A DNA stretch of 64,000 bases from contig WFOA01000010.1 of the NCBI GenBank assembly GCA_015488325.1, positions 15,945 through 79,944 of the forward strand, given 5' to 3'. A program made the translations under genes and the position numbers. Below are positions 22,430 to 62,830 of this stretch, in pieces (position 1 is the first letter of the stretch; every line of letters starts with the position of its first letter). The stretch is from Acidimicrobiia bacterium. GTDB taxonomy: Bacteria > Actinomycetota > Acidimicrobiia > Spongiisociales > ZC4RG35. The notes below the pieces were generated by a model, which saw only the letters and a program-made list of their open reading frames with translations, did not search any database and had not been told where the DNA came from.

Positions 22430-24360
22430 ACCGTCGAAACCTCGGGTTCTGGGGTGAGGACGATCGTCTCGTCGCCGCCCCCAGTATGCCGCGCCAGCGC
22501 CCGCAACATGTCGACGACGTCCTCCAACGCCCCTTTGCGGGCGGCCCGCTCCAGCATCTCGACCCCGTCGGAGAGGGTGGTGACCCCCGGCCGAGGCGGA
22601 TGGGCGATCGAGATCTTCGGGTGCTCCGACGGCTCGAGGGCACCTTCGGCGAGGACCTCCACCATCTTCTCGCCCGGCCGGACCCCGCTGACGACGACTT
22701 CGATGTCGCGGCCGGGGACGAGTCCGGCGAGGCGGATCAGACGCCGAGCCAGGTCGGCGATCCGGATCGGCTCGCCCATGTCCAGCACGAACACCTCGCC
22801 GCCTTCGGCGAGGGCGGCGGCCTGGAGGACGAGCTGGACCGCCTCGTCGACCGTCATGAAGTACCGGGTCATGCTGGGGTCGGTGAGCGTGACCGGCCCG
22901 CCCTTCTTGATCTGCTCGACGAAGGTGGGCACGACACTGCCGCGGCTGCCGAGGACGTTCCCGAACCGCACGGCGGTGTAGGTGCAGCCGTCGGCACGCA
23001 GGTCGGCGGCCTGGACGAGCATCTCGGCGACCCGCTTGGTGGCGCCCATCACCGAGACGGGATCCACCGCCTTGTCGGTGGAGATCAACACGAACCGCTC
23101 CGCCCCGACCTGGGTGGCGATGTCGATCATGTTCCGGGTGCCGATCACGTTGGTCAGCACCGCCTCGTCCGGGAACCCTTCGAGGATCGGTACGTGTTTC
23201 AGCGCCGCCGCATGAAAGATGACCTGAGGCCGGTACGGGGTGACACGTCGCGCCAACATGTCGGCGTCCCGCACGTCGGCGAGGATCGGCGTGATCTCGG
23301 CGTCGGGTCCGCAGCCCAGCACCGTCTCGTGGAGGTGGGTCTCGTCGTTGTCGAGCGCCAGCACCGTCTCCGGACCGAACCGGAGGACCTGACGGACGAT
23401 CTCGGAACCGATCGAGCCTCCGGCCCCGGTGACGAGGACCCTTCTGCCCCGCAAGAGGCCCGCCACCGCGGCCAGGTCCGTCGAGACGGTGGCTCGAGGC
23501 AGCAGGTCGGTGAGTTCGATGTCTCGGACATCGACCGCGCCGGCGGAACCTTCCATCACCCGATGGGCGACGGGGAGGATCCGCAGCCGCACGTCGACGT
23601 CGGTGCAGAGGTCGACGACCCTCCTGCTGAGGTAGTCGTCGTCGGCCACGACGATCACCTGCTCGGCTCCGTACCGCTCGATCACGTCGTGCAGTTCGTC
23701 GAGGTCCCCCAAGATGGGCAGTCCGGCCAGACGGCGGACACTGTCGGCGCCTCCGGTCGAGACGAACCCGATGATGTCGATCTCACCGCCGTTGCTCGTC
23801 ACCTCACGGACGAAATCCGCCGCCGCCCGGCAGGTGCCGACGACGAGGGTGGGGAGCGGCCGCCCACCGGTGATGGTCCGTTTGAACGAGAACAGCCGCG
23901 ACCGGAACCGCACCAGGCCCATCCCGGCGAGGGCGAGCAGCGGGCCCATGATCGCCACCGACAGCGGGATCGGCACCAGGCCGTCGGAGGTGACGTCCAC
24001 CCAGAGCACCCAGCCGGTGACGGCCATGCCGACGACGACGTTGGAGGCGATCACCTGTTTCGCCTCGGAGATCGAGGCGAACTCCCAGACGTGCCCGTAG
24101 GCGCCGAAGACGACGTTGGCCGCGAGGTGCAGCAACAACAGCAGGGGCATCGTCCGGGTGAGGCCCGTCCACCAGGTGAGGGGGTCGGTGATCCCGGTGT
24201 CGAGCATCCGCAGCCCCAGGGCGATCGTATAGGCGCCGACGACGATGGCCAGGTCGACCACGGCGAAGGCGATGTCCGCCCGCACCCTGGAAGCGGCCGC
24301 GGCCAGCGGCCTCCACCATCGTCCAGCCCTTGTCCCCAAAACAGATCCGGTGTCTGCCAC
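22420..24360 (-). CDS. Membrane-anchored nucleotide-sugar 4,6-dehydratase/epimerase (CapD/WbpM/PglF family)
   Basis: N-terminal 4 TM segments, then VLVTGAGGSIGSEI Rossmann motif and a CapD-like C-terminus. Proposed GTG start at 24360 is preceded by GGGAGG plus 5 nt; the track start at 24417 would make the 17-bp palindrome coding. Confidence 0.85.
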   Translation of the reverse strand: MADTGSVLGTRAGRWWRPLAAAASRVRADIAFAVVDLAIVVGAYTIALGLRMLDTGITDPLTWWTGLTRTMPLLLLLHLAANVVFGAYGHVWEFASISEAKQVIASNVVVGMAVTGWVLWVDVTSDGLVPIPLSVAIMGPLLALAGMGLVRFRSRLFSFKRTITGGRPLPTLVVGTCRAAADFVREVTSNGGEIDIIGFVSTGGADSVRRLAGLPILGDLDELHDVIERYGAEQVIVVADDDYLSRRVVDLCTDVDVRLRILPVAHRVMEGSAGAVDVRDIELTDLLPRATVSTDLAAVAGLLRGRRVLVTGAGGSIGSEIVRQVLRFGPETVLALDNDETHLHETVLGCGPDAEITPILADVRDADMLARRVTPYRPQVIFHAAALKHVPILEGFPDEAVLTNVIGTRNMIDIATQVGAERFVLISTDKAVDPVSVMGATKRVAEMLVQAADLRADGCTYTAVRFGNVLGSRGSVVPTFVEQIKKGGPVTLTDPSMTRYFMTVDEAVQLVLQAAALAEGGEVFVLDMGEPIRIADLARRLIRLAGLVPGRDIEVVVSGVRPGEKMVEVLAEGALEPSEHPKISIAHPPRPGVTTLSDGVEMLERAARKGALEDVVDMLRALARHTGGGDETIVLTPEPEVSTVWT

Positions 24361-24389
24361 CAGAACCTCCCAGCTCTCGCATCCCCACT

Positions 24390-24406
24390 TGACCCCGTCG
24401 GGGTCA
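24390..24406. promoter_or_regulatory. 17-bp perfect palindrome TGACCCCG-T-CGGGGTCA in the divergent promoter region between the capD-like operon and the epimerase operon
   Basis: Read directly from the sequence. It lies outside coding if the capD-like gene starts at the RBS-supported GTG at 24360. Confidence 0.5.
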
Positions 24407-24613
24407 GTCGGATACATCCTACCCGCGGACCGACATCATCAAATGGGCCGTCCGGCCCATTCCTGGGTCCCGGGACTCATTGTCGACCGCGACCGGAAAG
24501 TCCCACTTCCCGCCGCCCGATGCACCGTCTAGCCTGGCCCGGGGCGGCGCCGCATCGGCGCCAGTTCGCCACCACATCACGACTCGGTGCGAGCCAGGGA
24601 GGTTCGAAGAGCT

Positions 24614-25498
24614 ATGAAAGTGCTCGTCACGGGGGCAGCCGGTTTCTTGGGGAGAACGGTCGCCACCTATCTGAAGGAGCAAGGACATCACGTCGTCGGG
24701 TTCGACCTGAAAGACCCGGGAATCGACGGTCTCACGATGCAGATCGGTGACCTCACCGACCTCGATCAGGTCTCGGCTGCGGTCGAAGGCCACGACGCGG
24801 TGTGTCACATCGGAGCGATCGGCGACGTCTACCTGGCCGGGGAGGATCCCGGCCTGGCGGCGGCGGTCAACGTGTTGGGGACCGCCAACGTCGCCGAAGC
24901 GGCGGTGCGTCACGGCGCCCGGGTGGTCTACGCCTCCACGTGGGAGGTCTACGGTGAACCCCGATACCAGCCGATCGACGAAGACCATCCCTGCGCCCCC
25001 GACCACCCGTACAACATCACGAAGCTGGCGGGCGAGTCGCTGCTGCTGTCGGCTGCACGTCTCCGTGGGCTCGAGACGGTCGCCCTCCGTCTCGGCACCG
25101 CCTACGGGCCGGGTCTGCGCCCGAACTCGGTGTTTCGGATCTTCATCGACCGGGCACGCCGAGGCGAGCCGATCACCATTCAGGGTGACGGCTCCCAGGG
25201 GCGGCAGTTCACCCACAGCCGCGACATCGCCCGGGCCTTCGACCTGGCGCTCCGGTCCGACGTCTCCGGGGTCGCCCTGAACACGGTGGCGACACGGACC
25301 GTGACGATTCGTGAGCTGGCGGAGAAGGTGGTCGAACGGTTCCCCACCGAGCTCACCTTCGGACCGCCCCGTCCCGGCGACGTCCCTCCGGCGACCGTCT
25401 CGGCGGCCCGGATCGCCGACGTCCTCGGATGGGAGGCGCAGATCCCCTTCGAGGACGGGCTCGCCGACCTGATCGACCATGAGCTCGCCGGAGACTGA
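24614..25498 (+). CDS. NAD-dependent epimerase/dehydratase (UDP-sugar 4-epimerase-like SDR)
   Basis: MKVLVTGAAGFLGRTV start; YxxxK; 295 aa. Divergent from the capD-like gene. Confidence 0.85.
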   Translation: MKVLVTGAAGFLGRTVATYLKEQGHHVVGFDLKDPGIDGLTMQIGDLTDLDQVSAAVEGHDAVCHIGAIGDVYLAGEDPGLAAAVNVLGTANVAEAAVRHGARVVYASTWEVYGEPRYQPIDEDHPCAPDHPYNITKLAGESLLLSAARLRGLETVALRLGTAYGPGLRPNSVFRIFIDRARRGEPITIQGDGSQGRQFTHSRDIARAFDLALRSDVSGVALNTVATRTVTIRELAEKVVERFPTELTFGPPRPGDVPPATVSAARIADVLGWEAQIPFEDGLADLIDHELAGD

Positions 25499-26585
25499 CG
25501 GGCGGATCCTCGTTCTCGTCTACGGGCTCGGCCTCGGCGGCGCCGAGAAGCTCCTCGCCACCTCGGCTCCGCTGTGGGCCGAGTCGTCGTTCACCTACCG
25601 GGTCGCCTACGTGCTCCCCTGGAAGGACCAGCTCGTCGACACCATCCGGAGGTCGGGAGTCGAGGTGGACTGTCTCGGAGGGAGAGCCTCCGACCCCCGG
25701 GTCGCCTTCCGACTGCGACGCCTCATCCGGTCCTGGAGACCCGATCTGGTCCATGCCCACCTTCCGATCGCCGGGACCATCGCCCGGGTCGTCTCCCCCG
25801 TCCCCGTCGTGTACACCGAGCACAACCTCGCCGGCTCCTACCGGCCTCTGGTCCGCCTCGGCAACCGGGTGACCTACCGGGCGAACGCGGCGGTGATCGC
25901 CGTGTCGGACGCCGTGGCATGCTCCCTCGAGGGCTACCCGGGCCCGACCCCTCGGGTCGTGCCCAACGGCGTGCTCTGCGAGGTCGGCGCCGACGAGGCG
26001 GAGGCGGCGAGACACGAACTCGACCTCGACCCTGACGCCAGACTCGTCGTACACGTGGGCAACCTCCGCCCCCACAAGGGACACCGGAACCTGGTCGAGG
26101 CAGCGGCGGTGCTGGAACAGGCCGGATCGAAGGCGATCCTGGTCTCCATCGGTGGGGAGAAACACCCCGGCGACCTCGAACGCCTCCGAGCCGAAGTCGC
26201 CGCCCGGGGTCTCGAGCACCGGCTCAGATTCCTCGGCCGTCGCGAAGACGCCCGGGCGTTCATCGCCGCCGCCGACGTGTTCGTCAGCCCCGCCGACGTG
26301 GAGGGGCTCCCCGTGGCGATCCTCGAAGCCCTCGCCCTGGGCCGCCCGGTGGCGGCGACGGCGGTGGGGGGTGTCCCCAGCGTCGTCGTCGACGGTGAAA
26401 CCGGAATCCTGGTACCGCCGGGCGACCCGGAAGCCCTCGCCGAGGCCGTCGAACGCCTCCTCGCCGACGCCGAATGGGCGGCGCGGCTGGGCAAGGCGGG
26501 ACAGGCCCTCGTGGAGACCGAGTACGGCCTCGAGAAGATGGTGGACGCCTACGAACGGGTGTACCGAGAGATCCTCGGGACATGA
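25479..26585 (+). CDS. Glycosyltransferase family 4
   Basis: GT4 C-terminal motif EGLPVAILEALALGRPVAATAVGGVPSVVVDGETG. Confidence 0.8.
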   Translation: MSSPETDGRILVLVYGLGLGGAEKLLATSAPLWAESSFTYRVAYVLPWKDQLVDTIRRSGVEVDCLGGRASDPRVAFRLRRLIRSWRPDLVHAHLPIAGTIARVVSPVPVVYTEHNLAGSYRPLVRLGNRVTYRANAAVIAVSDAVACSLEGYPGPTPRVVPNGVLCEVGADEAEAARHELDLDPDARLVVHVGNLRPHKGHRNLVEAAAVLEQAGSKAILVSIGGEKHPGDLERLRAEVAARGLEHRLRFLGRREDARAFIAAADVFVSPADVEGLPVAILEALALGRPVAATAVGGVPSVVVDGETGILVPPGDPEALAEAVERLLADAEWAARLGKAGQALVETEYGLEKMVDAYERVYREILGT

Positions 26586-27526
26586 CCGGCCCGAGCATCC
26601 GCCTCGCCCGACCCGACGATCTCCCCCAGATCCTCGACGTCCTGCGGGCCGCCCTGGGCGAGACGCCCCTGTTGCGACGCACCCCGGAGCTGTGGCGTTG
26701 GAAACACGTCGAGAACCCCTTCGGGCCGTCTCTGGTCCTCGTCGCCGAAGCCGACGGCCGGGTCGTCGGGGTACGGGCCTTCATGCGTTGGGAGTTGGAG
26801 ACGCCCGACGGTGACACCCTCCGGTGCGTCAGGGCGGTCGACACCGCCACCCATCCCGACTATCTGCGACGGGGGATCTTCCGGCGTCTGACCGAGTCGG
26901 CGATCGAATACGCCCGGGACGAAGGGGTGGATCTGGTCTTCAACACCCCCAACGCCAAGTCGGGGGCGGGATACCTGAAGATGGGGTGGCGGACCGTCGC
27001 CCGACTCGGGGTGATCGTCCGATGGCGGACGGGTCGGGTCGCACCCCTCGATTCCGATACCGTGCCCCGCCTCGACGACCATGTGGCGGCGGTCGACCCG
27101 CTGGATCCGCTGCCCCCGGCCAGACGGGGACACGGTCTCAGGACTCCCCGCCGCGACGCCTACCTCCACTGGAGGTTCTCACAGCATCCGACGGCACGCT
27201 ACGGAGCCGTCCGGTTCGGATCCGGGACCGCCGTGGTGCGACCCAACGTCCGTGCAGGACGCCGGGAGCTGGTGGTGTCGGACGTCCTCGGTGACGCCAC
27301 CGCGGGGCTGTTCCGGGAGGTGGCGAAGAGGAACCGCTCCCGCTACGTGGCCACCTGGTTCTCCCCGGCGGCACCGGAACGGCGCATAGCCCGACGTGCC
27401 CTGTACGCTCCGGTTCCGGGACTGCGGACCCTCACCCTCGTGGCCCGACCGCTACGGTCCCTCCCCGTGGACGTCTTCGATCTGGGGAACTGGGATCTGG
27501 CGGTGAGCGACCTGGAGTTGCTGTGA
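26582..27526 (+). CDS. GNAT-family acetyltransferase with C-terminal extension
   Basis: Start ATG at 26582 overlaps the upstream stop (ATGA). Acetyl-CoA binding region VVGVRAFMRWELE ... RRGIFRRLTESAIEYARDEGVDLVFNTPN. The in-frame N-terminal extension to 26474 is junk. Confidence 0.7.
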   Translation: MTGPSIRLARPDDLPQILDVLRAALGETPLLRRTPELWRWKHVENPFGPSLVLVAEADGRVVGVRAFMRWELETPDGDTLRCVRAVDTATHPDYLRRGIFRRLTESAIEYARDEGVDLVFNTPNAKSGAGYLKMGWRTVARLGVIVRWRTGRVAPLDSDTVPRLDDHVAAVDPLDPLPPARRGHGLRTPRRDAYLHWRFSQHPTARYGAVRFGSGTAVVRPNVRAGRRELVVSDVLGDATAGLFREVAKRNRSRYVATWFSPAAPERRIARRALYAPVPGLRTLTLVARPLRSLPVDVFDLGNWDLAVSDLELL

Positions 27527-28869
27527 GACAGCAGATCGTCCTCGGGATCGGCGCCGGGTTGACGGCACTGGTCGCGTTCGTCCTCGCCGCCGGCGCCGTC
27601 CCCCTCCACCTCGTGGTGCTGGCGGTGGCCGGCCTCTCCGTCACCTACCTGGTGGGTCGGGCGATGGCGACGGACTTCGACCGGTCCTGGCTCCCCGGTC
27701 TCCTGGTGGCCGGACTGGCCGCGAAGCTGGTCGGGGCCTGGGTCCGGTACTTCGTCCTCATCGAGGTGTACGGCGGTGTGGGTGACGCCCTCGGATACCA
27801 CAGCCGAGGCCTCCGCCTCGCCGAGATGTTCCGGGCGTTCACGGTCCCCACCTTCGAGGACGCCGGTTTCGGGTCGACCGGCACCCGGTTCGTCTCCTGG
27901 TTCACGGGTCTCGTCTACACGCCGTACCAGCCCGAGCCCCTCGGCGGTTTCTGGCTGTTCTCGCTGATCGCGTTCGCCGGCACGGTTCTCTTCTACGCGG
28001 CGGTGCGACGCAGCCTGCCACCGTCGACGTGGCGGCGGTTCCTCATCATGCTGATGTTCTGGCCGACGCTGCTGTACTGGCCGTCGTCGGTGGGCAAGGA
28101 AGCCCTGATCCTGGGCTTCGGAGGGGTGGTGACCTACGGGGCGGCGCGGCTGTTCGAGCGGTACCGCCTGAGCTGGCTGCTCGTCATCGGCGCGGCGATG
28201 GCCGTCATAGGCATCATCCGGGTCCACGTCGCCGGCCTGTTCGCCGGAGCGATCGTCGTCGGCATGCTCGTCTCCGCCGCACCTCGCGGTGCAGGCCCGA
28301 AGAGTCGCCGCCTCCTCCTCATGGCGGCCGGGTTCGCGGCGCTCATCCCCCTGGCCGCCCTGGTCTCGAGGGAGTTCGGCATCGACCCCAGCGGCCCCCT
28401 CGACCCCTCCGCCCTCGAGCCGGTCCTGTCCGAGGTGGCCCGCACCACCGGCCAGGGAGGCTCGGCGGTGCAGGGCGGGGTGATCCGCTCCATCGCCGAC
28501 GTCCCGGCCGGTGTCCTCAAGGTGTTGTTCCGTCCCCTCCCCTACGAGGCGTCCAACATCCAGATGCTGGCGGCCAGCGTCGAGGGCGTGGCGTTGCTCC
28601 TGTTGATCCTCTCCCGCACCCCGTGGATGATCGGGAACCTGCGTCGGCTGCGCCGCTTCCCGTATCTGATCTTCGCCGCCACGTTCTCGGCCGGTTTCGT
28701 GGTGGCCTGGAGCGCGATCCTCAACCTGGGGATCATCGCCCGCCAGCGGGCCCTCGTCATCCCCTTCGTCCTGACCCTCGTCGCCGGCCTCGGCTGGCCC
28801 CTGGCCGCCGGCGAGGAGCCGGCTTCCGCTGCCGAACCCGACCGGGACGCCGCCCTCAACCCCACTTGA
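27523..28869 (+). CDS. Polytopic membrane protein, candidate Wzy-type glycan polymerase
   Basis: 448 aa, at least 10 hydrophobic TM segments and one large extracytoplasmic loop. Placed in the operon after GT4 and GNAT and next to wzx-pathway genes; no specific motif recognised. Confidence 0.5.
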   Translation: MRQQIVLGIGAGLTALVAFVLAAGAVPLHLVVLAVAGLSVTYLVGRAMATDFDRSWLPGLLVAGLAAKLVGAWVRYFVLIEVYGGVGDALGYHSRGLRLAEMFRAFTVPTFEDAGFGSTGTRFVSWFTGLVYTPYQPEPLGGFWLFSLIAFAGTVLFYAAVRRSLPPSTWRRFLIMLMFWPTLLYWPSSVGKEALILGFGGVVTYGAARLFERYRLSWLLVIGAAMAVIGIIRVHVAGLFAGAIVVGMLVSAAPRGAGPKSRRLLLMAAGFAALIPLAALVSREFGIDPSGPLDPSALEPVLSEVARTTGQGGSAVQGGVIRSIADVPAGVLKVLFRPLPYEASNIQMLAASVEGVALLLLILSRTPWMIGNLRRLRRFPYLIFAATFSAGFVVAWSAILNLGIIARQRALVIPFVLTLVAGLGWPLAAGEEPASAAEPDRDAALNPT

Positions 28870-29794
28870 GCGCGGCCCCCACGGCGCCGACCACCGCCAG
28901 CACCCCGGTGACCGCCGCCGCGCCCACCCCGGCCCACCACCAGGCGGCGACGACCGCGCCACATAGGAGCGCCTGCGCCCCGGCGGCCACGAACACGACC
29001 GTCGGCACGCTCCACCCCCGGTCGGCCAGCCGGTCGTAGAGATGGGACCGGTCCCCTTGGAACAGGGGCATCCCCGCCCTCCGCCGTCGCAGCACCGTCG
29101 AGACGAGGTCGACGAGGAACACGCCGAGCAACGAGCCGCCGGCGACCATCCCGACCACGTCTTCGCCTCCCAGCCGGACACCGGAGGCCACGAGCATCAG
29201 GCCGACCAGGTAGCTGCCGTTGTCCCCGAGGAACACCCGCGCCGGATGCCAGTTGAAGACACCGAACCCGACCAAGGCGGCACCGAGGGCGACTTCGGCA
29301 CCGAGATCCGCTCCCGACGTCGACCCGACCAGCCCCATCGCCACCAGCGTCACCAGGGCCACCGACGCGACCAACCCGTCGAGGCCGTCGAAGAGGTTCA
29401 CGGCGTTGATCCCCACCACCACGCCGGCGGCGACGAGGGCACCGCCGACGGGTCCGACCCCGAGAGCCCAGGCCACGAGCACCCCGGCGACGGCTTCGAC
29501 GGCGAGCCTGAGCACCGGGGGCAGGCCTCTGCGGTCGTCGACCAGCCCCAACGCGACCACCAGCCCTGCCGCGACCATCAGCCTCGGGGAGGGACGTCCG
29601 GTGAGTATCGACGAGACGACGAGGGCGCCGTACAGCCCCACCCCTCCGAGGGGCACCGCCGGGACCGTGTGGACTTTCAGGGCCTCCCCGGGTCGGTCGA
29701 CGATCCCCAGTCGGGGGCCGAGCGCCGGTGCGATCGCCGACCACCCGGCGGAGACGACTGCGGCGGCGAGCCCTCCGGCGATCAGGCCGACCAC
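28856..29794 (-). CDS. Polyprenyl-phosphate N-acetylhexosamine-1-phosphate transferase (WecA/MraY family, GT4 phosphoglycosyl transferase)
   Basis: Conserved INAVNLFDGLDGL and VFLGDNGSYLVG motifs. Proposed GTG start at 29794 has GGAGGT 7 nt upstream; the long Arg-rich extension to 30619 is junk overlapping the next gene. Confidence 0.8.
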   Translation of the reverse strand: MVGLIAGGLAAAVVSAGWSAIAPALGPRLGIVDRPGEALKVHTVPAVPLGGVGLYGALVVSSILTGRPSPRLMVAAGLVVALGLVDDRRGLPPVLRLAVEAVAGVLVAWALGVGPVGGALVAAGVVVGINAVNLFDGLDGLVASVALVTLVAMGLVGSTSGADLGAEVALGAALVGFGVFNWHPARVFLGDNGSYLVGLMLVASGVRLGGEDVVGMVAGGSLLGVFLVDLVSTVLRRRRAGMPLFQGDRSHLYDRLADRGWSVPTVVFVAAGAQALLCGAVVAAWWWAGVGAAAVTGVLAVVGAVGAALKWG

Positions 29795-31554
29795 ACCAGC
29801 ACCTCCGAGGTCTCGCCGCGGTGGACTTCGATCGTCCCCACCGGTTCGAACCCCATCTTCCGGTAGGCGGCGATCGCCGCCGAGTTGTCGGCGCCCACGA
29901 CCACCTTCACCTTCCCCACGCGGCTCATCGCGGTGAGGAGCTCCCGTCCCAGAACGGTGCCGATCCCTCGACCGCGCCGATCCGCCACCACCGCCATCGA
30001 CACCAGTTCGGCGTCGACGCCGACGTCGCCGCCTTCGTAACGGAAGGTCTCCCAGGCCCGCCGCAGCATCGTCGGGCGCAGCAACCGAGGTGCGGCCGCC
30101 ACGACCGCCCGGATCCCGAAGCGACGGACGAAGGAACGGTAGAAGGCGCCGATGTCGGCGACGCCGGCGACGAACCCGACCGGCCCGCACTCGTCCTCGG
30201 CGACGAGCACGACGGCGTCTTCGTGTTCCACGAGCGCACGGTAGAGGAGTGTCATGAACCGGCGTCCCAGACGGGGCAGGAAACCGGTGGAGATCGCTTG
30301 CGCGTGCAGGACGGCCAGGAAACGGGTGTCCCCTTCGTCGGCCCGCCGGACCCGGACCTCGCCGGAAGGTCCGTCGCCGAGGGCGGCCGCCAGCCGGTCC
30401 AGGCCTTTGGTGAGGGCGAGCTCCCGATAGGTGGAGAGGACGATCTCGACGACCCTGTCCTCGTCGAAGAGCCGTCTGGCCCGTTCGCGCCCGGCCCGGC
30501 CCATCCGAGAGGCCAGCTCCGGGTCGTCCCCGATGGTCCGGATCGCCCGGGCCAGGGACCGGGCGTCGGAGACGGGGACGAGGAGGCCGTTCTCGCCGTC
30601 GGCGACGACCTCCCGGCATCCCCGGATGTCGGTGGCGACGATGGGCAGGCCCATGGCGGCAGCCTCCATCGCCGCCCGGGGGAAGCCTTCACGGTGCGAC
30701 GGGAGCACGAACACGTCCATCGTCGGGTAGAGGGCATCGACGTCGGTGCGCATCCCCAGGAACCGGACGCCGTTCGCCTTCGCCCGTTCGATCATCGCGT
30801 CGCCGAGGTCGTCCGCCTTTTCGGGGTCCCGGGGCCCGATGCAGACCACCACGTACCGGTCGTCGAGGAGTCGGGCGGCCTCGAAGAGCTCCGGGTAGCC
30901 CTTCTCCGCCACCATCCGCCCCACCATGCCCACCACCACCGCGTCCGACGGGATGCCGAGCTCGGCACGCATCCGATCCCGATGGGACCGGTCGTACCGG
31001 GCGGGATCGAACCGGGCGAGGTCGACACCGTTGCCGAGATGCCGTGTCCGAGCCCGGGGTGCGAGACGCAGCCTGTGGGCCAGTTCGAGATCCTCCGCGC
31101 TCTGATAGAGCTCGGCGTCGGAGAACCGGGAGGCGACGAACTCCAGGGCGTAGACGACCAGGCGTTTCAGCGGTGGATCGTCGGGGGCCGCGTAGAAGCC
31201 GTGCACCGTGTTGACGACGACGGGCACGCCGGCCACACGGCCGAGGATCCGACCGTAGACGCCGGGTTTGGGGTTGTGGGTGTGCAGCACGTCCGGTCGG
31301 AGCCGCCTCAGCACCCTCCAGAGCTGGGCGGCTGCCCGCAGGTCGGCGCCGAGGCTCATCCCACGTGTCGACGCCGACAGTGCCACATGTTCGATGCCTG
31401 CCGCCTCCAGCTCGGCCACCCAGGGGCCGGGAGAGGAGATCCCCACCGACCGGATGTCCCTCTGGAGGGGTGCGAGGAGCTGGGGGAACACCAGGTAGCG
31501 GAGGGACAGGTCCACCGTCGTCAGGTGGGCGATCACCGGGCGCCGATCAGCCAT
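29782..31554 (-). CDS. Bifunctional glycosyltransferase family 4 / GNAT acetyltransferase fusion
   Basis: N-terminal about 380 aa GT4 (EGFPRAAMEAAAMGLPIVATDIRGCREVV). C-terminal about 200 aa GNAT-like (FLAVLHAQAIS ... GRGIGTVLGRELLTAMSRVGKVKVVVGADNSAAIAAYRKMGF). Confidence 0.8.
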   Translation of the reverse strand: MADRRPVIAHLTTVDLSLRYLVFPQLLAPLQRDIRSVGISSPGPWVAELEAAGIEHVALSASTRGMSLGADLRAAAQLWRVLRRLRPDVLHTHNPKPGVYGRILGRVAGVPVVVNTVHGFYAAPDDPPLKRLVVYALEFVASRFSDAELYQSAEDLELAHRLRLAPRARTRHLGNGVDLARFDPARYDRSHRDRMRAELGIPSDAVVVGMVGRMVAEKGYPELFEAARLLDDRYVVVCIGPRDPEKADDLGDAMIERAKANGVRFLGMRTDVDALYPTMDVFVLPSHREGFPRAAMEAAAMGLPIVATDIRGCREVVADGENGLLVPVSDARSLARAIRTIGDDPELASRMGRAGRERARRLFDEDRVVEIVLSTYRELALTKGLDRLAAALGDGPSGEVRVRRADEGDTRFLAVLHAQAISTGFLPRLGRRFMTLLYRALVEHEDAVVLVAEDECGPVGFVAGVADIGAFYRSFVRRFGIRAVVAAAPRLLRPTMLRRAWETFRYEGGDVGVDAELVSMAVVADRRGRGIGTVLGRELLTAMSRVGKVKVVVGADNSAAIAAYRKMGFEPVGTIEVHRGETSEVLVWSA

Positions 31555-33658
31555 CGATCGTGCTCCTCAGGACCTGCTCGTACCGGTCGATGCTCGCACC
31601 CATCGTGTACCTGCGGGCCAGCTCCCGGGCGGCGGCACCCATCCGGCGGCGACGCTCGGGATCCGCGGCGAGGTTCTTCAGGGCGGCGGCGGCACCTTCG
31701 ACGTCCCCGGGCCGGACCAGGATCCCCGTCGTACCGTCGGTCACCACTTCGGGGGTGCCTCCCACCCGGGTCGCCACCACCGGACGTCCCGCCGCCGCGG
31801 CCTCCAGCACGACGCCGGGGAGCCCTTCGGTGCGGGAGGTGGACAACAGCACGTCCGCCCATCCGAACAGCTCTTCCATCTCCGCCGCCGAACCGAGGAC
31901 CTCGATCCGGGGACCCGCCGCCGCCTCGACTTCGGTGCGCAACGGGCCGTCACCGGCGATCTTCGCCCACACGTCGGCGTCGGCCGCGGCGAGGTTGATC
32001 GCCTGCACCGCCGTCAGCGGGTCCTTCTCCGTGGACAGGGCGCCGGCCACCAGCACCCGCAGCTCGGGGTGCGGGAGGGGCGGGTCCAGCTCGAACCAGT
32101 GGTCGGGCACGCCGGTGGGCGCGACCGTGACCCGGTCGGGGGCCACACCCATCGAGTCGATGAGCTGGCTGCGGGTGGCCTCCGACACGGCGGTGATCCG
32201 GTCGCAACGTCCGAGGAGGTACCGCTGGATCCGAGCGTGCCACGGGCCCCGCACCCAGTACCGGGGTTCACCGATCGACGAGTAGACGACGCGGGGACGC
32301 CCGGGCATGAACCTGGTGGCGGCGACGACGGTCCGCAGGGTGGCTCCTCCGTTGGCCAGGACGACGTCGGGCCGGCGCCGCCGGAGGAGCCTGCGCAACA
32401 GCCGTGGCAGCGCCACGTCGGAGACGTCGGCTCCCCCGACGGCGTCGTCCACCTGGACCCGGGGGTCGGATCCGCCGGCTCTGAGGGCCACCAGGCTCGC
32501 CTTCCATCCCCGTGCCCGCAGGCCCTCGACGAGACGTTCACCGAACACTTCGGCGCCGCGTCGCCGATCGGAGCTGACCAGCACCATCACCGACCCGAAC
32601 CGGTCCCCCTTCGAGGCGACGACCCGCCGACGCCAGCGCGGGTAGGCGCGGGGGGCCCGCAGCGCCAGCACCGCCCGGTCGAGCCGTCGGTCGGCGTGGA
32701 GGGTGACCGCCAGGTTGAGGAGATGGGGCCTCTTCCCGTCGAACCGCACCAGGTCGGTGCGGGGGAGCAACTCCCGGGCGACCCGGAGGGGGAGACCGCC
32801 GGTGGAGGTCTCCGCCAACACCTCCCCGGGTACGGCGGCTCCCAGGGCGGAGGCGACGCTCCAGGCCAGATGCCCGAACCCGGCCAGGCCGTGGTCGTGG
32901 GCGAAGCGGACCGCCGTCTCCCAGTCGAGGCCGTGCCGGGCGACTTCGACGAGGTCACGGAACAGCACCAGCCGGAACCGATGATCCAAGAGGGCGTGGG
33001 TACACAGGAACGCCGCCACGACCTCGTCGGGCAGCAGCCACCCGAGGTGGGTCTGGTCCGGCTCGGGGGGACGTGCCCGCTCCCACGCCTGCTCGGTCGC
33101 TCCGGCGGCGCGGCCGCGGAGTTGACGGTACGAGAAGAGGTCCCAGTGCAGGTCGACGTTGAAGACCACCCCGGAGGGGTCGCGGAACGGGATGTCCCGT
33201 TTGTCGGCTCTCGGTCGCTTCGGTGGAATCCCCAGACATTCGGGGTCGGAGGCGACGATCTCAAGGGTGCGACCGAGTTCGGCGGACGGGACGACCAGAT
33301 CGAGGTCGGTGAAGATCCGCTGGCCCGGGGTCGGGTAGAGCCGGTCCGCCAGCGCGGGCCCCTTCACCACCGCCGCTCGGATGCCGGCGGCGGCGAGGCG
33401 TTCCATGAGGCGACGGAGGCTGCGGCGCATCACGATGCCCAGGGCGACCGCCCGGGTCTGCACGGTGGACAGCTCGTGGCGATCGACGACGTCGCCGGGG
33501 GTGAGCAGGCCGACCAGACCGTGGCTACAGGCGAGTTCGAAGACGGCGCCGTCGACCGACCCGGCCGGGCGTTCCCATCCTGCCGCCACCGCCGCCAGCA
33601 CCCGTTCGGCGGGATCGGCCGCGAACAGCCATCCTTCGTTCGGTTCGGTGCCCCTCAC
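31547..33658 (-). CDS. Fusion protein: N-terminal uncharacterised nucleotidyltransferase-like domain (NTP_transf_5-like) + C-terminal glycosyltransferase family 4
   Basis: N-terminal region with FTDLDLVVP-type motif. C-terminal GT4 motif EGLPGVVLEAAAAGRPVVATRVGGTPEVVTDGTTG. First gene of a 3-gene minus-strand operon; stops overlap downstream starts. Confidence 0.75.
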   Translation of the reverse strand: MRGTEPNEGWLFAADPAERVLAAVAAGWERPAGSVDGAVFELACSHGLVGLLTPGDVVDRHELSTVQTRAVALGIVMRRSLRRLMERLAAAGIRAAVVKGPALADRLYPTPGQRIFTDLDLVVPSAELGRTLEIVASDPECLGIPPKRPRADKRDIPFRDPSGVVFNVDLHWDLFSYRQLRGRAAGATEQAWERARPPEPDQTHLGWLLPDEVVAAFLCTHALLDHRFRLVLFRDLVEVARHGLDWETAVRFAHDHGLAGFGHLAWSVASALGAAVPGEVLAETSTGGLPLRVARELLPRTDLVRFDGKRPHLLNLAVTLHADRRLDRAVLALRAPRAYPRWRRRVVASKGDRFGSVMVLVSSDRRRGAEVFGERLVEGLRARGWKASLVALRAGGSDPRVQVDDAVGGADVSDVALPRLLRRLLRRRRPDVVLANGGATLRTVVAATRFMPGRPRVVYSSIGEPRYWVRGPWHARIQRYLLGRCDRITAVSEATRSQLIDSMGVAPDRVTVAPTGVPDHWFELDPPLPHPELRVLVAGALSTEKDPLTAVQAINLAAADADVWAKIAGDGPLRTEVEAAAGPRIEVLGSAAEMEELFGWADVLLSTSRTEGLPGVVLEAAAAGRPVVATRVGGTPEVVTDGTTGILVRPGDVEGAAAALKNLAADPERRRRMGAAARELARRYTMGASIDRYEQVLRSTIDG

Positions 33659-33812
33659 CCCGGCCTTCCCTCGTCTCGATGCCTGCCGGGGCGAACGATG
33701 GCGTCACCCGCCCCGGTGCCTCCTTAGAGTACCGGCGGGCAGCCGGCCCGAAAGGGGGTACCGGGCGGCCGCCGCCCAGACGACCAGCGGACGACCAGGA
33801 GGATCCCAGCCC

Positions 33813-34409
33813 GTGACGACCCTCACCGCCGCCGACGGGACGGTGTTGGAGGCCCGATGGGACGGCCCCGCAGACGCCGGGATGGCGGTTGTGTTCTGCC
33901 ATCCCCATCCCGGTTACGGGGGGACCATGACCGCCCCCCTCATGAACGGTGTCACCGACGGGCTCACGGCGAGGGGTTTCGCCGTCCTCCGCTTCAACTT
34001 CCGTGGTGTCGGCGAGTCGGGCGGGCACCACGACGACGGCGAAGGAGAGGTCGCCGACGTCGCCGCGGCGGTCGCCGCCGCCGAGGCCCGCCACCCCCGG
34101 GTCTCGGTGTGCGGCTGGTCCTTCGGGGCGGCGATGGCCCTGGGTTGGATGGCCCGGTCCCGACGGGCTCTCCCCTTCGTCGGGATCGCCCCGCCCCCTC
34201 AGCTCTGCCCTCCGCCCGACGAGGTACCGCCCGGTCCGAAGCTCATCGTCGTCGGCGACCGTGAACAGGTGATCGACCTCGACGCCCTCCGCGCCTACGC
34301 CGCCGCCATCGGGGCGACGGTCGAGACGCTCGTCGGCTCGGACCATTTCTTCGTGTTCCGCCACACCCAGGTGGCGGAGATGGTGGCCGGTTTCCTCAGC
34401 GCGGAGTGA
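33813..34409 (+). CDS. Alpha/beta hydrolase (COG2945-like)
   Basis: GTG start with AGGAGG 10 nt upstream. HPHPGYGG motif and nucleophile elbow GWSFG. The track's long N-terminal extension is Arg/Ser-rich junk. Confidence 0.7.
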   Translation: MTTLTAADGTVLEARWDGPADAGMAVVFCHPHPGYGGTMTAPLMNGVTDGLTARGFAVLRFNFRGVGESGGHHDDGEGEVADVAAAVAAAEARHPRVSVCGWSFGAAMALGWMARSRRALPFVGIAPPPQLCPPPDEVPPGPKLIVVGDREQVIDLDALRAYAAAIGATVETLVGSDHFFVFRHTQVAEMVAGFLSAE

Positions 34410-34599
34410 ATCCGCGGTTTCGAGCCTCGGCGAGCTCGTCCGGTCCGAAGGACGCCAACAGGTTCCGCCCGAGCAGGTCGTCGGCTTCCACCCTGGCCTC
34501 GAGCAGCTCGTACTGTCGGGGATCGTCGGTGTCATAGACCACCATGTCGTCGCGGGTTCCCACGTAGCGGTGGTGCTCGAACCTCCGCAGCCGGGGCAT
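34396..34599 (-). CDS. Small hypothetical protein (67 aa)
   Basis: MPRLRRFEHHRYVGTRDDMVVYDTDDPRQYELLEARVEADDLLGRNLLASFGPDELAEARNRGFTPR. Its ATG overlaps the zinc-ribbon stop codon (GTGATG). The rest of the long ORF in this frame is Arg-rich junk. Weak support. Confidence 0.35.
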   Translation of the reverse strand: MPRLRRFEHHRYVGTRDDMVVYDTDDPRQYELLEARVEADDLLGRNLLASFGPDELAEARNRGFTPR

Positions 34600-34901
34600 C
34601 ACTCCTCCCCTCCCCGACCGGTCGGCACCTCGGCTCCGCAGTTCGGGCAGGTGGCGACGGCGATGTCGCCGACGATGAAACGGAACTCGCATTCGGGACA
34701 CTGCACCCGGGGCGATGGCGGTTCGGGCCGCGGAGGAGGCGGAGGCGACGTGTATCCCGGGGGTGCCCCGGCCGCCTGGCCCGGTCCGGGCCGAGCTCCG
34801 GCGGCCCTCACCGCGTTCACCGACCCGCAGGCCGGACAGGAGAACTTCCCGGGACCGGGCACCTCGAACTGCGTGTGGCATGCTCCGCACCGTACGATCA
34901 T
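34599..34901 (-). CDS. Double zinc-ribbon protein
   Basis: Two CxxC...CxxC pairs (CGACHTQF...CPACG and CPECEF...CPNCG) separated by a Pro-rich linker. Confidence 0.6.
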   Translation of the reverse strand: MIVRCGACHTQFEVPGPGKFSCPACGSVNAVRAAGARPGPGQAAGAPPGYTSPPPPPRPEPPSPRVQCPECEFRFIVGDIAVATCPNCGAEVPTGRGGEE

Positions 34902-35338
34902 CCTTCACCTCCCACCGGCTCGCCGACCGCCCCGATCGCCGCCAGATACTCGGCCTCCAGGGCCAGCACGGCGACGACGTCGTCCCGAGGGTAGGAGACG
35001 CCGTGACGGAGGGCGATCTGGTCCATGATGTACTCGACGGCCGCCGGGGCGCCGCCGGCCGTGACCTCCACCGGGGTGCGTCGACGCCTCTGGGCGAGCC
35101 CCTGGAGGTAGTAGACCTCCCATTCGATGATCCGGCGGATGTCGGAACGTCTGAGACGTGCCGCCAGCTCGGAGTCGAGCCGCTCGTGGATGAAGGCGAC
35201 GGCGTCTTCCACGACGTACACGGGTTCGATCGGACCCGAACTGCGACGTTTGGCCTCCTGGTAGACGAGGGCGGCGACGATGAAGAAGAAGATCGCCGCC
35301 AACAGACCGGCGAGGGCGACGGTGGTGACCCCGGACAT
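34898..35338 (-). CDS. Hypothetical membrane-anchored protein (single N-terminal TM)
   Basis: MSGVTTVALAGLLAAIFFFIVAALVYQEAKRR, then a soluble domain of about 110 aa. Its stop overlaps the start of the zinc-ribbon gene (ATGA). Confidence 0.55.
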   Translation of the reverse strand: MSGVTTVALAGLLAAIFFFIVAALVYQEAKRRSSGPIEPVYVVEDAVAFIHERLDSELAARLRRSDIRRIIEWEVYYLQGLAQRRRRTPVEVTAGGAPAAVEYIMDQIALRHGVSYPRDDVVAVLALEAEYLAAIGAVGEPVGGEG

Positions 35339-36480: not shown

Positions 36481-36530
36481 GTCGGCTCCTTCCCCGGGGC
36501 CAGCACAGGTTAGCGGTCGTTCACCGCCCT

Positions 36531-38321: not shown

Positions 38322-38349
38322 CCCTTCTCTTTTCAGCACCCAGTCTAAT

Positions 38350-38365
38350 TTGAGTAATAGCTCAA
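38350..38365. promoter_or_regulatory. Candidate TetR operator: inverted repeat TTGAG-taatag-CTCAA in an AT-rich fadE/tetR divergent intergenic region
   Basis: Perfect 5-bp arms with a 6-bp spacer inside the only AT-rich stretch (38341..38380) of this intergenic region. Confidence 0.45.
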
Positions 38366-38403
38366 GAACATTCGACCTCCGGGAACCTGGTACGGTCGCC
38401 ACC

Positions 38404-58411: not shown

Positions 58412-62830
<4,419 letters not shown>

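What the first reader, a model, noticed from the sequence alone, without database searches (positions are those of the whole stretch)
29782..33658. Two unusual fusion enzymes: GT4-GNAT and nucleotidyltransferase-like-GT4
29782..31554 encodes a GT4 glycosyltransferase fused to a C-terminal GNAT acetyltransferase. 31547..33658 encodes an N-terminal domain of about 330 aa resembling the uncharacterised nucleotidyltransferase family (TDLDLVVP motif) fused to a GT4 domain. Both lie in one operon with the WecA-like initiating enzyme. The fusions suggest channelled sugar transfer plus N-acetylation or nucleotidylation steps that are uncommon in characterised pathways.
Basis: partly seen in the sequence, partly recalled or inferred. 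Interest (0 to 1): 0.5.

Follow-up and report, generated by a model that had tools for sequence, protein, structure and literature searches.

The report
Conserved fused glycan-assembly enzyme pair
Two overlapping genes of an uncultured Acidimicrobiia bacterium each join a sugar-adding enzyme to a second catalytic domain (an acetyltransferase in one, a barely studied nucleotidyltransferase in the other); both fusions are real, common in that bacterial class and part of a surface-polysaccharide locus, but their chemistry is untested.

Summary
Both ORFs exist as described. 29782..31554(-) encodes GT4 + GNAT (590 aa). 31547..33658(-) encodes PF14907 nucleotidyltransferase + GT4 (703 aa). Their ends overlap each other and a WecA-like gene (28856..29794), so they form one operon. 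Neither fusion is a sequencing artefact: at least 120 protein clusters of each architecture exist, almost all from Acidimicrobiia MAGs, and catalytic motifs are invariant in all four domains. The N-terminal domain models confidently as a Pol-beta-type nucleotidyltransferase, closest to MenT1 and ANT(2''). It is not a sugar-1-phosphate nucleotidyltransferase. The first GT4 resembles PglA over its full length. The pair lies in a conserved cluster with a CapD-type dehydratase, a reductase, another GT4, a GNAT and a Wzy-like membrane protein, inside a 25-kb Wzx/Wzy-type polysaccharide locus. In 21-23 of 25 related loci a PqqD chaperone and an HprK-like kinase sit just upstream. That set resembles the one that phosphoglycosylates the lasso peptide pseudomycoidin. 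This window and its closest relative lack those genes, yet the nucleotidyltransferase domain stays under purifying selection (dN/dS 0.21). Most likely this is a four-domain module of lipid-linked glycan assembly with an unknown phosphate-linked step. It is a new variant of known kinds, of moderate interest.

The parts
31547..33658 (-). Gene for the NTase(PF14907)-GT4 fusion protein, 703 aa. GTG start at 33658, preceded by the GA-rich stretch GAGGGAAGG.
   Evidence: ORF. Pfam. GC3 0.88. 100% identical 703-aa protein is in public collections. Upstream sequence.
32609..33658 (-). N-terminal nucleotidyltransferase domain, residues 1-350, Pol-beta fold followed by a helical domain.
33299..33307 (-). 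Codons for D118-L-D120, the metal-binding DxD of the nucleotidyltransferase. Other invariant residues: K99, G100, D169, H171.
   Evidence: Invariant in 39 aligned homologues. Positions. The equivalent DxD is essential in PsmN (PMC6993621).
31547..32596 (-). GT4 domain 'GT4b', residues 355-703, with RRGAEV at 366-371 and the EX7E motif E611-E619.
   Evidence: Pfam. Invariant residues. Motifs. Best solved relatives by sequence are BshA (2jjm, 5d00) and MshA, matching mainly the C-terminal half.
29782..31554 (-). Gene for the GT4-GNAT fusion protein, 590 aa. Its ATG start lies within the end of the upstream gene.
   Evidence: ORF. Pfam. GC3 0.88. Homologues at 60-81% identity.
30406..31554 (-). 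GT4 domain 'GT4a', residues 1-383, PglA-like, with EX7E motif E289-E297.
   Evidence: PDB sequence search: PglA 8dqd, E 9.3e-37, over residues 11-378. Motif.
29782..30363 (-). C-terminal GNAT acetyltransferase domain, residues ~398-590, with acetyl-CoA motif R527-G-R-G-I-G532.
   Evidence: Pfam. AF2 pLDDT 92.4. Foldseek returns only generic GNATs at TM ~0.6. Motif.
28856..29794 (-). WecA/MraY-family polyprenyl-phosphate HexNAc-1-P transferase, 312 aa, about 9 hydrophobic segments. Last gene of the operon.
   Evidence: PF00953 86.2 bits. TIGR02380 wecA E 2.3e-20, below cutoff. NLFDGLDGL motif. Hydropathy.
27523..28869 (+). Conserved 448-aa polytopic membrane protein (8 strongly hydrophobic stretches by a simple scan, two of them long enough for two spans; roughly 9-10 TM) with no Pfam family. 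Candidate Wzy-type polymerase or ligase (inferred).
   Evidence: No Pfam hit at E<=0.1. Hydropathy. Syntenic in about 20 related loci.
26474..27526 (+). Second GNAT (Acetyltransf_9). The true start is probably near 26585.
   Evidence: Pfam. Syntenic in relatives, with alignments beginning at residues 36-42.
25479..26585 (+). Third GT4 glycosyltransferase, 368 aa.
   Evidence: Pfam. Synteny.
24587..25498 (+). Short-chain NAD-dependent epimerase/reductase, 303 aa.
   Evidence: Pfam. 64-90% identity in relatives.
22420..24417 (-). Membrane-anchored Polysacc_synt_2 (CapD/WbpM/PglF-type) UDP-HexNAc 4,6-dehydratase, 665 aa.
   Evidence: PF02719 353 bits. Four N-terminal hydrophobic segments. Synteny.
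33659..33818 (.). Divergent intergenic region between the operon and an alpha/beta-hydrolase gene (33819..34409 +). In most relatives this position holds 1-2 kb carrying a GerE regulator and small secreted proteins, with PqqD and the HprK-like kinase immediately beyond.

Best explanation
The two genes encode a four-domain enzyme module (NTase-GT4b and GT4a-GNAT) that works with the co-transcribed WecA-like transferase in a Wzx/Wzy-type, lipid-carrier-based surface-glycan pathway of an Acidimicrobiia bacterium.

Proposed order (inferred):
1. The CapD-type dehydratase and the 303-aa reductase make a 6-deoxy-HexNAc nucleotide sugar.
2. The WecA-like enzyme puts it on polyprenyl phosphate.
3. The PglA-like GT4a adds the second sugar.
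4. GT4b and the 368-aa GT4 extend the unit.
5. The GNAT domain acylates an amino group of the growing unit.
6. The N-terminal domain is a catalytically competent PsmN-type Pol-beta nucleotidyltransferase. It uses an NTP or NDP-linked donor to make or activate a phosphate-linked bond on the substrate that GT4b handles, and this is why the two are fused.

Shown: gene structure, domain identities, folds, conserved catalytic residues, conservation of the fusions and of the gene cluster, and purifying selection. Inferred: every substrate, the order of steps, and the chemistry of the NTase and GNAT domains.
For: Domains and motifs.

Operon structure by overlapping stop and start codons.

GT4a matches the Und-PP-diNAcBac GalNAc-transferase PglA along its whole length (E 9e-37).

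Cluster conservation: NTase-GT4b | GT4a(+/-GNAT) | WecA | 448-aa membrane protein | GNAT | GT4 | reductase | CapD dehydratase recurs in about 20 Acidimicrobiia loci at 35-90% identity.

Wider locus in the window: Polysacc_synt_3 flippase, GT2s, GT4s, RmlC and a polysaccharide deacetylase lie between 9 and 22 kb.

Functional coupling of the domains:
- NTase is fused to GT4b in 30 of 34 assessable loci and separate in 3.
- GT4a is fused to GNAT in 17 of 22 assessable loci.
- GT4b-GT4a-GNAT triple fusions exist (P0126, P0127).

The NTase domain is at least as well conserved as the GT4b domain. K99, G100, D118, D120, D169 and H171 are invariant. The fold is confirmed. dN/dS is 0.21, against 0.27 for GT4b, between the window and L003.

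Distant stand-alone PF14907 genes also lie beside GT4, Wzy_C, Bac_transf and GHMP-kinase genes. Some are fused to Wzy_C or a polysaccharide deacetylase.
Against: - No substrate has been identified and no enzymology exists for any member.
- There is no aminotransferase gene in the conserved cluster to supply a free sugar amine for the GNAT. Five relatives lack the GNAT domain altogether.
- The only experimental datum for an uncharacterised nucleotidyltransferase of this kind (PsmN) concerns a peptide, not a polysaccharide.
- In 21-23 of 25 relatives the gene is coupled to a PqqD peptide chaperone and an HprK-like kinase. That points to a peptide or protein partner, which this explanation does not use.
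- Known Pol-beta NTases usually act on hydroxyl groups rather than phosphates (own knowledge).
Confidence: 0.5

Rival explanations
1. Peptide or protein phosphoglycosylation. The module is the glycosylating arm of a PqqD/HprK-kinase/PF14907 cassette. The kinase phosphorylates a Ser/Thr of a peptide or secreted protein presented by PqqD. The NTase domain couples a sugar to that phosphate, as PsmN is required to do for pseudomycoidin. The fused GT4 and GT4-GNAT then extend and acetylate the glycan. In the window lineage the kinase and chaperone would be encoded elsewhere.
For: - PqqD is present in 23 and an HprK-like kinase in 21 of the 25 related loci with at least 3 kb of upstream sequence. 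They were identified with NCBIfam TIGR04352 and PqqD models.
- L001 carries a lasso-type set (Transglut_core3, PqqD, Asn_synthase, kinase, two precursor-like ORFs, ABC transporter) directly upstream of NTase-GT4. This mirrors the psm cluster gene content.
- Small proteins with a twin-arginine-like signal lie between PqqD and NTase-GT4 in 11 loci.
- A distant PF14907 gene sits in a PF14907-PqqD-Transglut_core3-HprK-like-ABC-GerE cassette.
- Lasso clusters with NTase, HPr kinase and glycosyltransferase genes are reported (PMC7533575).
Against: - The 64-kb window contains no PqqD, HprK-like, lasso or Tat-type genes. tblastn found nothing. Profile HMMs built from 25 and 29 homologues gave a best E of 0.23.
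- The closest relative L003, and also L031, lack them as well.
- The rest of the conserved cluster (WecA, PglA-like GT4, Wzy-like protein, CapD) is typical of lipid-linked glycan assembly.
- Homology of the window domain to PsmN itself could not be tested.
Confidence: 0.2
2. GlmU-like donor synthesis with channelling. The GNAT acetylates an amino-sugar phosphate. The NTase converts a sugar-1-phosphate plus NTP into the NDP-sugar. The fused GT4 consumes that NDP-sugar directly.
For: - It is chemically coherent with the domain set of NTase + GT4 + GT4 + GNAT.
- Distant PF14907 genes lie next to GHMP sugar kinases and GT4 or Bac_transf genes (L045, L047). That is the layout of kinase -> nucleotidyltransferase -> transferase salvage routes.
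- The authors of the PsmN study keep open that PsmN 'produces a substrate used by' a host glycosyltransferase.
Against: - The domain has the Pol-beta fold of ANT/MenT/LnuA enzymes, not the RmlA/GlmU fold.
- No PF00483 match appears.
- No sugar kinase lies in the conserved Acidimicrobiia cluster.
- GNAT and NTase sit on different polypeptides, each attached to a different GT4.
- A Pol-beta NTase making NDP-sugars has no precedent that I know of (own knowledge).
Confidence: 0.15
3. The N-terminal domain is no longer an enzyme in this lineage. It serves as a scaffold, nucleotide sensor or membrane/partner-docking module for GT4b. It would be a relic of the lost PqqD/kinase cassette.
For: The partner genes are missing next to the gene in the window and in L003. 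About 180 residues of the domain form a helical region with no assigned function.
Against: All residues invariant across the family are retained, including K99, G100, D118, D120, D169 and H171. dN/dS of 0.21 between the window and L003 is as low as for the GT4 domain.
Confidence: 0.08
4. Artefact or misassignment. Each 'fusion' is really two genes joined by an assembly or sequencing error, or the NTase is a MenT/AbiEii-type toxin of a defence system that happens to lie beside a GT4.
For: The closest solved folds are toxins (MenT1, TglT, MenT4). There are weak Pfam 'GT4-conflict' matches (32.3 and 26.6 bits against a cutoff of 26).
Against: - The same fused architectures occur in at least 120 clusters each, from independent assemblies, and in 30 of 34 and 17 of 22 loci.
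- The coding signal is continuous across the junctions.
- PADLOC gives no hits.
- There is no antitoxin-like neighbour.
Confidence: 0.02

Closest known systems
PglA, the GT4 N,N'-diacetylbacillosaminyl-PP-undecaprenol alpha-1,3-GalNAc transferase (PDB 8dqd)
   Same: The GT4a domain aligns over its whole length (residues 11-378, E 9.3e-37). Like PglA, it is encoded next to the enzyme that primes the lipid carrier and near a Polysacc_synt_2 dehydratase.
   Different: The similarity is well below orthologue level: NCBIfam scores fall far below every equivalog cutoff. It carries a C-terminal GNAT domain that PglA lacks. No PglE-type aminotransferase is in the cluster. Donor and acceptor are unknown.
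PsmN, the 'uncharacterised NTP transferase' required for hexose addition to the phosphoserine of the lasso peptide pseudomycoidin (PMC6993621)
   Different: Here the domain is fused to a GT4 and sits in a WecA/Wzy-type glycan locus. The window has no kinase, PqqD, cyclase or precursor genes. Direct sequence comparison with PsmN was not possible.
PqqD + HprK-related kinase A cassette ('HPr-rel-A system', NCBIfam TIGR04352/TIGR04353)
   Same: Relatives carry a PqqD chaperone and a kinase whose best NCBIfam match is HprK_rel_A, next to the PF14907 gene. A distant PF14907 locus shows PF14907-PqqD-Transglut_core3-kinase-ABC-GerE.
   Different: Scores are far below the NCBIfam cutoffs (65.5 bits against 200). 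The window lacks the cassette. The cassette itself has no known function.
ANT(2'')-Ia, LnuA and MenT1/TglT minimal Pol-beta nucleotidyltransferases
   Different: Sequence identity is only 10-19%. The window domain has an extra helical domain of about 180 residues, is not a stand-alone resistance or toxin protein, and has no PADLOC match.
Bifunctional enzymes that join an acetyltransferase to a sugar-nucleotide or glycan step: GlmU, and Neisseria PglB (own knowledge, not tested here)
   Same: The logic of fusing N-acetylation to an adjacent step of amino-sugar or glycan assembly is shared.
   Different: Those acetyltransferase domains are left-handed beta-helix domains, not GNAT. Their partner domains are a GT-A-like uridylyltransferase or a phosphoglycosyltransferase, not a GT4.
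WbpM/WbpV(WbpK)/WbpL-type initiation with QuiNAc or FucNAc (own knowledge)
   Same: The window has the same trio: a membrane-anchored Polysacc_synt_2 dehydratase, a ~300-aa SDR reductase and a WecA-family transferase.
   Different: The assignment rests on domain families only. Sugar identity was not tested.

Membership tests
GT4 (GT-B) glycosyltransferases, both proteins | Pfam Glycos_transf_1 plus the N-terminal Glyco_transf_4-type domain, above gathering score | tested here: met
   128.7 and 92.3 bits against a cutoff of 26.4. N-terminal domains score 53-70 bits against cutoffs of 28.5-29.7.
GT4 (GT-B) glycosyltransferases, both proteins | EX7E motif in the C-terminal domain | tested here: met
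   E289-E297 in GT4a and E611-E619 in GT4b. E611 and E619 are invariant in 39 homologues.
GT4 (GT-B) glycosyltransferases, both proteins | Retaining transfer from an NDP-sugar | not testable with these tools
   Needs enzymology.
GNAT acetyltransferases | Pfam GNAT models above gathering score | tested here: met
   Acetyltransf_7 37.7 against 27, Acetyltransf_1 34.1 against 20.7, FR47 29.2 against 22.1.
GNAT acetyltransferases | GNAT fold and acetyl-CoA motif Q/R-x-x-G-x-G/A | tested here: met
   AF2 pLDDT 92.4. Foldseek probability 1.00 to many GNATs. R527GRGIG, with R and G invariant.
GNAT acetyltransferases | Identity of the acceptor (sugar amine, peptide N-terminus or other) | tested here: inconclusive
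   The best structural matches are functionally mixed: puromycin NAT, PaiA, Naa60, RimI and SpeG, at TM ~0.6.
PF14907 NTP_transf_5 (uncharacterised nucleotidyltransferase) | Pfam model above gathering score | tested here: met
   87.3 bits against 31.2, profile positions 40-246 of 249.
PF14907 NTP_transf_5 (uncharacterised nucleotidyltransferase) | Pol-beta nucleotidyltransferase fold with G-[GS], DxD and a third carboxylate | tested here: met
PsmN-type lasso-peptide tailoring enzyme | Encoded within a lasso cluster (B1/PqqD, B2, cyclase, precursor) together with an HprK-type kinase | tested here: not met
   None of these genes is in the window. Some or all of these genes are present in relatives L001, L025, L034, L035 and L039 (PqqD and an Asn_synthase-type gene in all five; the full lasso-type set with kinase only in L001).
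PsmN-type lasso-peptide tailoring enzyme | Sequence homology to PsmN itself | not tested
The link rests on the authors' description and the shared ANT(2'') similarity.
PqqD/HprK-related-kinase/PF14907 cassette | PqqD and HprK-like kinase genes adjacent to the PF14907 gene | tested here: not met
   Absent from the 64-kb window (best HMM E 0.23). PqqD is present in 23 and the kinase in 21 of 25 related loci.
Sugar-1-phosphate nucleotidyltransferases (GlmU/RmlA type, PF00483) | PF00483/GT-A-like fold | tested here: not met
   No such Pfam or NCBIfam hit. The fold is Pol-beta type.
MenT/AbiEii-type nucleotidyltransferase toxins and defence systems | Match to defence-system models and a cognate antitoxin gene | tested here: not met
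   PADLOC gives 0 families for the three operon proteins and two neighbours. The domain is fused in frame to a GT4.
WecA/MraY polyprenyl-phosphate HexNAc-1-P transferases (downstream gene) | PF00953 above gathering score, polytopic membrane protein | tested here: met
   86.2 bits against 27. About 9 hydrophobic segments. The NCBIfam wecA score of 73 is below the 326 cutoff, so it is not assigned as an orthologue.

The most novel reading that the evidence does not exclude
The PF14907-GT4 protein is the coupling enzyme of an undescribed Acidimicrobiia system. That system would attach a glycan, built on a lipid carrier by the WecA/GT4/Wzy-like genes, through a phosphodiester to a kinase-phosphorylated, PqqD-presented peptide or secreted protein. 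It would be a hybrid of RiPP-type phosphoglycosylation and Wzy-type polysaccharide assembly. The window would represent a lineage in which the glycan arm persists without the adjacent kinase and chaperone.
Probability: 0.12. Interest if true: 0.75.

Novelty: new variant of a known kind. Interest (0 to 1): 0.4.

Why it matters
PF14907 is a large family with no known reaction: 3,814 representatives at 50% identity match this domain at E<=1e-3. Its only experimental foothold is the in vivo requirement of PsmN for hexose addition to a phosphorylated lasso peptide.

A clade in which the domain is permanently fused to a GT4 gives a concrete handle for finding its chemistry. That clade is flanked by a PglA-like GT4-GNAT and a WecA-type initiator. 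In most members it is also coupled to a PqqD chaperone and an HprK-like kinase. The fusion partner says which step comes next, and the cluster says which substrates to try.

It would also give a first look at envelope-glycan biosynthesis in Acidimicrobiia, which here are known only from metagenome-assembled genomes. If the chemistry proves to be ordinary glycan decoration, the result is simply a well-annotated polysaccharide locus.

Tried and rejected
- NCBIfam on the N-terminal domain: no family.
- Foldseek against AFDB50 to find annotated relatives: the library was not available.
- Literature: PF14907 appears in only two held texts, both the same phosphonate-inventory study (a bioRxiv preprint and its PMC version), as a passing mention. 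'NTP_transf_5', 'HprK-related kinase' and GT4/GNAT bifunctional queries returned nothing.
- Defence-system reading (MenT-like fold, weak 'GT4-conflict' Pfam hits): rejected, because PADLOC is empty and the context is polysaccharide synthesis.
- Artefactual fusion or chance ORF: rejected.
- Search of the window for PqqD, HprK-like, lasso, GerE-type and Tat-type small-protein genes seen in relatives: nothing by tblastn or by profile HMMs of PqqD and the kinase.
- Mycothiol or bacillithiol-like reading (GT4 + GNAT + deacetylase): considered because MshA and BshA appear among the hits. Set aside because PglA matches GT4a far better and over its full length, all NCBIfam scores are far below cutoffs, and the context is a WecA/Wzx/Wzy locus.
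- GNAT substrate from structure: the Foldseek hits are too generic to say.

Full report
**Observation.** The window is about 70% GC, so long ORFs appear in several frames. The region alone holds antisense ORFs of 756 and 552 aa. Their GC at codon positions 1/2/3 is 0.76/0.48/0.88 and 0.77/0.53/0.88. The antisense ORFs show the shadow pattern, with GC1 above GC3. GC3 remains high in every 30-codon block across both domain junctions.

Pfam gives these architectures:
- 29782..31554(-), 590 aa: a complete GT4 (Glyco_trans_4_4 at 41-176; Glycos_transf_1 at 192-358, 128.7 bits) followed by a GNAT (Acetyltransf_7 and Acetyltransf_1, 458-571, above cutoffs).
- 31547..33658(-), 703 aa: NTP_transf_5 (PF14907) at 61-271 (87.3 bits against a cutoff of 31.2) followed by a complete GT4 (368-679).

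The two genes overlap by 8 nt (ATGGCTGA). The stop of GT4-GNAT lies 13 nt inside the next gene, 28856..29794(-). That gene is a WecA/MraY-family transferase (PF00953, 86.2 bits).

**The fusions are real and conserved.**
- NTase-GT4: the protein search returned at least 120 clusters of about 700 aa with the same Pfam architecture, at 42-72% identity. All named ones come from Acidimicrobiia MAGs.
- GT4-GNAT: at least 120 clusters of about 590 aa at 60-81% identity.
- A scan of one genome per species found 41 loci, almost all Acidimicrobiia MAGs. The closest (L003) is 72% identical.
- NTase and GT4b lie in one ORF in 30 of 34 assessable loci. In three loci the NTase is a stand-alone gene (358 and 415 aa in L033 and L034). 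One locus shows a frame change.
- GT4a carries the GNAT in 17 of 22 assessable loci and lacks it in five.
- P0126 and P0127 are GT4b-GT4a-GNAT triple fusions without the NTase.

This shuffling of the same four domains is classic evidence that they act together.

**Catalytic competence.** In an alignment of 39 homologues the N-terminal domain is at least as conserved as the GT4. Invariant residues in the N-terminal domain include K99, G100, D118, D120, D169, H171, H221, D225, H226 and R227. Invariant residues in GT4b include RRGAEV 366-371, E611 and E619. GT4a has EX7E at E289-E297, and the GNAT has the acetyl-CoA motif R527GRGIG.

**Folds.**
- The N-terminal domain has no PDB relative by sequence.
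- Its AF2 model is confident (pLDDT 92.7).
- It is therefore not the RmlA/GlmU type that makes NDP-sugars.
- The GNAT model (pLDDT 92.4) matches only generic GNATs, so the acceptor cannot be read from the structure.
- GT4a matches PglA, which acts on an undecaprenyl-PP-linked sugar, over its whole length (E 9.3e-37).
- GT4b matches BshA and MshA mainly in the donor-binding half.

**Genomic context in the window.** The operon ends a polysaccharide region of about 25 kb.
- Between 9 and 22 kb lie GT4, GT2, a Polysacc_synt_3 flippase, GT2, an epimerase, RmlC, GT4, a polysaccharide deacetylase and a 931-aa protein.
- These are followed by a membrane-anchored Polysacc_synt_2 dehydratase, a 303-aa reductase, a GT4, an Acetyltransf_9 GNAT and a 448-aa polytopic membrane protein without any Pfam family.
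- The block from the dehydratase to NTase-GT4 is syntenic in about 20 related loci.
- There is no aminotransferase in it.
- PADLOC finds nothing.

**The lead from relatives.** In relatives, the DNA upstream of NTase-GT4 carries a divergent PqqD-family chaperone and a P-loop protein whose best NCBIfam match is HprK-related kinase A, below cutoff.
- Of 25 loci with at least 3 kb upstream, 23 have PqqD, 21 have the kinase and 3 have an Asn_synthase-type gene. Only L003 and L031 have none of them.
- L001 has a complete lasso-type set: Transglut_core3, PqqD, Asn_synthase, kinase, two precursor-like ORFs and an ABC transporter.
- The 1-2 kb between PqqD and NTase-GT4 holds a GerE-type regulator in 22 loci. 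In 11 loci it also holds a protein of about 165 aa with a twin-arginine-signal-like conserved N-terminus and a variable Cys-rich C-terminus.

This gene set parallels the psm cluster. There an HprK-type kinase phosphorylates the C-terminal serine of a lasso peptide. PsmN, an 'uncharacterised NTP transferase' modelled on ANT(2''), is required for hexose addition to that phosphate, and its DxD is essential (PMC6993621; review PMC8498205; PMC7533575).

**What the window lacks.** The window has none of these partner genes. In their place is a 160-bp intergenic region and an alpha/beta-hydrolase gene. Two conserved unknown ORFs follow (34396..35338). In L010, L017 and L030 these lie beyond the kinase. 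tblastn and profile HMMs of PqqD and the kinase find nothing anywhere in the 64 kb. The same holds for the closest relative, L003. The NTase domain is nevertheless maintained: dN/dS between the window and L003 is 0.21, against 0.27 for GT4b.

**Wider family.**
- The domain matches 3,814 representatives at E<=1e-3, but only 35 at E<=1e-30.
- That tight clade is mostly about 700 aa. The rest of PF14907 is 330-430 aa and stand-alone.
- Other fusions exist with a polysaccharide deacetylase, Wzy_C and VanZ.
- Five sampled distant members fall into two context types.
  - Three lie beside GT4, Wzy_C, Bac_transf or GHMP-kinase genes (L044, L045, L047).
  - Two lie beside PqqD: L046 with Transglut_core3, an HprK-like protein, an ABC transporter and GerE, and the P0288 locus with PqqD next to a Wzt-type ABC transporter.
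- PF14907 is thus recurrently tied both to glycan genes and to a PqqD/kinase cassette. The Acidimicrobiia cluster unites the two, and the fusion hard-wires a PF14907-GT4 adjacency that is seen elsewhere.

**Interpretation.** The best-supported reading (confidence 0.5) is a four-domain module of lipid-carrier-based glycan assembly. In it, the PsmN-type NTase domain makes or activates a phosphate-linked bond for the step carried out by its fused GT4. All substrates are inferred. The rivals:
- Peptide or protein phosphoglycosylation (0.2). This is favoured by the relatives and disfavoured by the window's own gene content.
- GlmU-like donor synthesis (0.15). It is chemically neat but the fold is wrong.
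- A non-catalytic relic domain (0.08). This is contradicted by conservation.
- An artefact or toxin (0.02).

**Novelty.** The proteins are already in public collections, unnamed or with generic names. Each domain belongs to a known family. I found no description of the PF14907-GT4 or GT4-GNAT architectures or of this cluster. I rate it a new variant of known kinds, of moderate interest. The interest comes mainly from the handle it offers on PF14907.

Noticed in passing
L001 4557-8913: A lasso-peptide-like gene set lies directly upstream of NTase-GT4 in a relative. It comprises Transglut_core3, PqqD, a 386-aa Asn_synthase, a 281-aa HprK-like kinase, an ABC-2 transporter and two precursor-like ORFs (57 and 46 aa) sharing MEYESPRIS.LGSIEELTLQ.DK.GDEPD.
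   Followed up: partly
L009, L036, L032, L002, L011 and six other loci, between PqqD and NTase-GT4: Small proteins of about 165-250 aa with no Pfam match. They share a highly conserved twin-arginine-signal-like N-terminus (GITRRDLLRRGAALGGAVVW.TPVVQTLGMGRAFAQ) and a variable Cys-rich C-terminus. The L002 and L020 versions have a long Ser/Thr-rich linker. They may be substrates of the kinase/NTase/GT set. They are absent from the window.
   Followed up: partly
22 related loci, immediately upstream of and divergent from NTase-GT4: A conserved protein of about 200 aa with a GerE/LuxR DNA-binding domain (58 bits) and a receiver-like N-terminus. It is missing in the window and in L003.
   Followed up: partly
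window 34396-34908 (-) and 34898-35338 (-): Two overlapping conserved ORFs (170 and 146 aa) with no Pfam, NCBIfam or PADLOC match. They are syntenic in L003, L010, L017 and L030. In the last three they lie beyond the HprK-like kinase, which marks the boundary of the apparent deletion in the window lineage.
   Followed up: partly
window 27523-28869 (+): A 448-aa protein with 8 strongly hydrophobic stretches by a simple scan (roughly 9-10 TM) and no Pfam hit even at E 0.1. It is conserved in about 20 related clusters and is a candidate Wzy-type polymerase or ligase.
   Followed up: partly
window 19634-22429 (-): A 931-aa ORF with a strong coding signal and only a sub-threshold CbiA/MinD-type match. 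It lies between the deacetylase and the CapD-type dehydratase and may be a chain-length regulator or BY-kinase-like protein.
   Followed up: no
P0126, P0127 (metagenome proteins, 959 and 946 aa): Triple fusion GT4b-GT4a-GNAT without the NTase domain. This shows that the domain boundaries of the module are fluid.
   Followed up: partly
P0290, P0305, P0346; loci L044-L047: Distant PF14907 proteins are fused to a polysaccharide deacetylase, to Wzy_C or to VanZ. Stand-alone members sit next to GT4, Bac_transf and GHMP-kinase genes, or in a PqqD/Transglut_core3/HprK-like/ABC/GerE cassette.
   Followed up: partly
window 58412-62830 (-): A 1472-aa ORF with a strong coding signature (GC3 0.88). It was not examined.
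   Followed up: no
window 35371-38498 (-) and 38314-38949 (+): Two acyl-CoA dehydrogenase genes and a TetR regulator flank the locus. Acyl-CoA dehydrogenase and AMP-binding genes also flank the cluster in L001. This may be coincidence or a link to an acyl donor for the GNATs.
   Followed up: no
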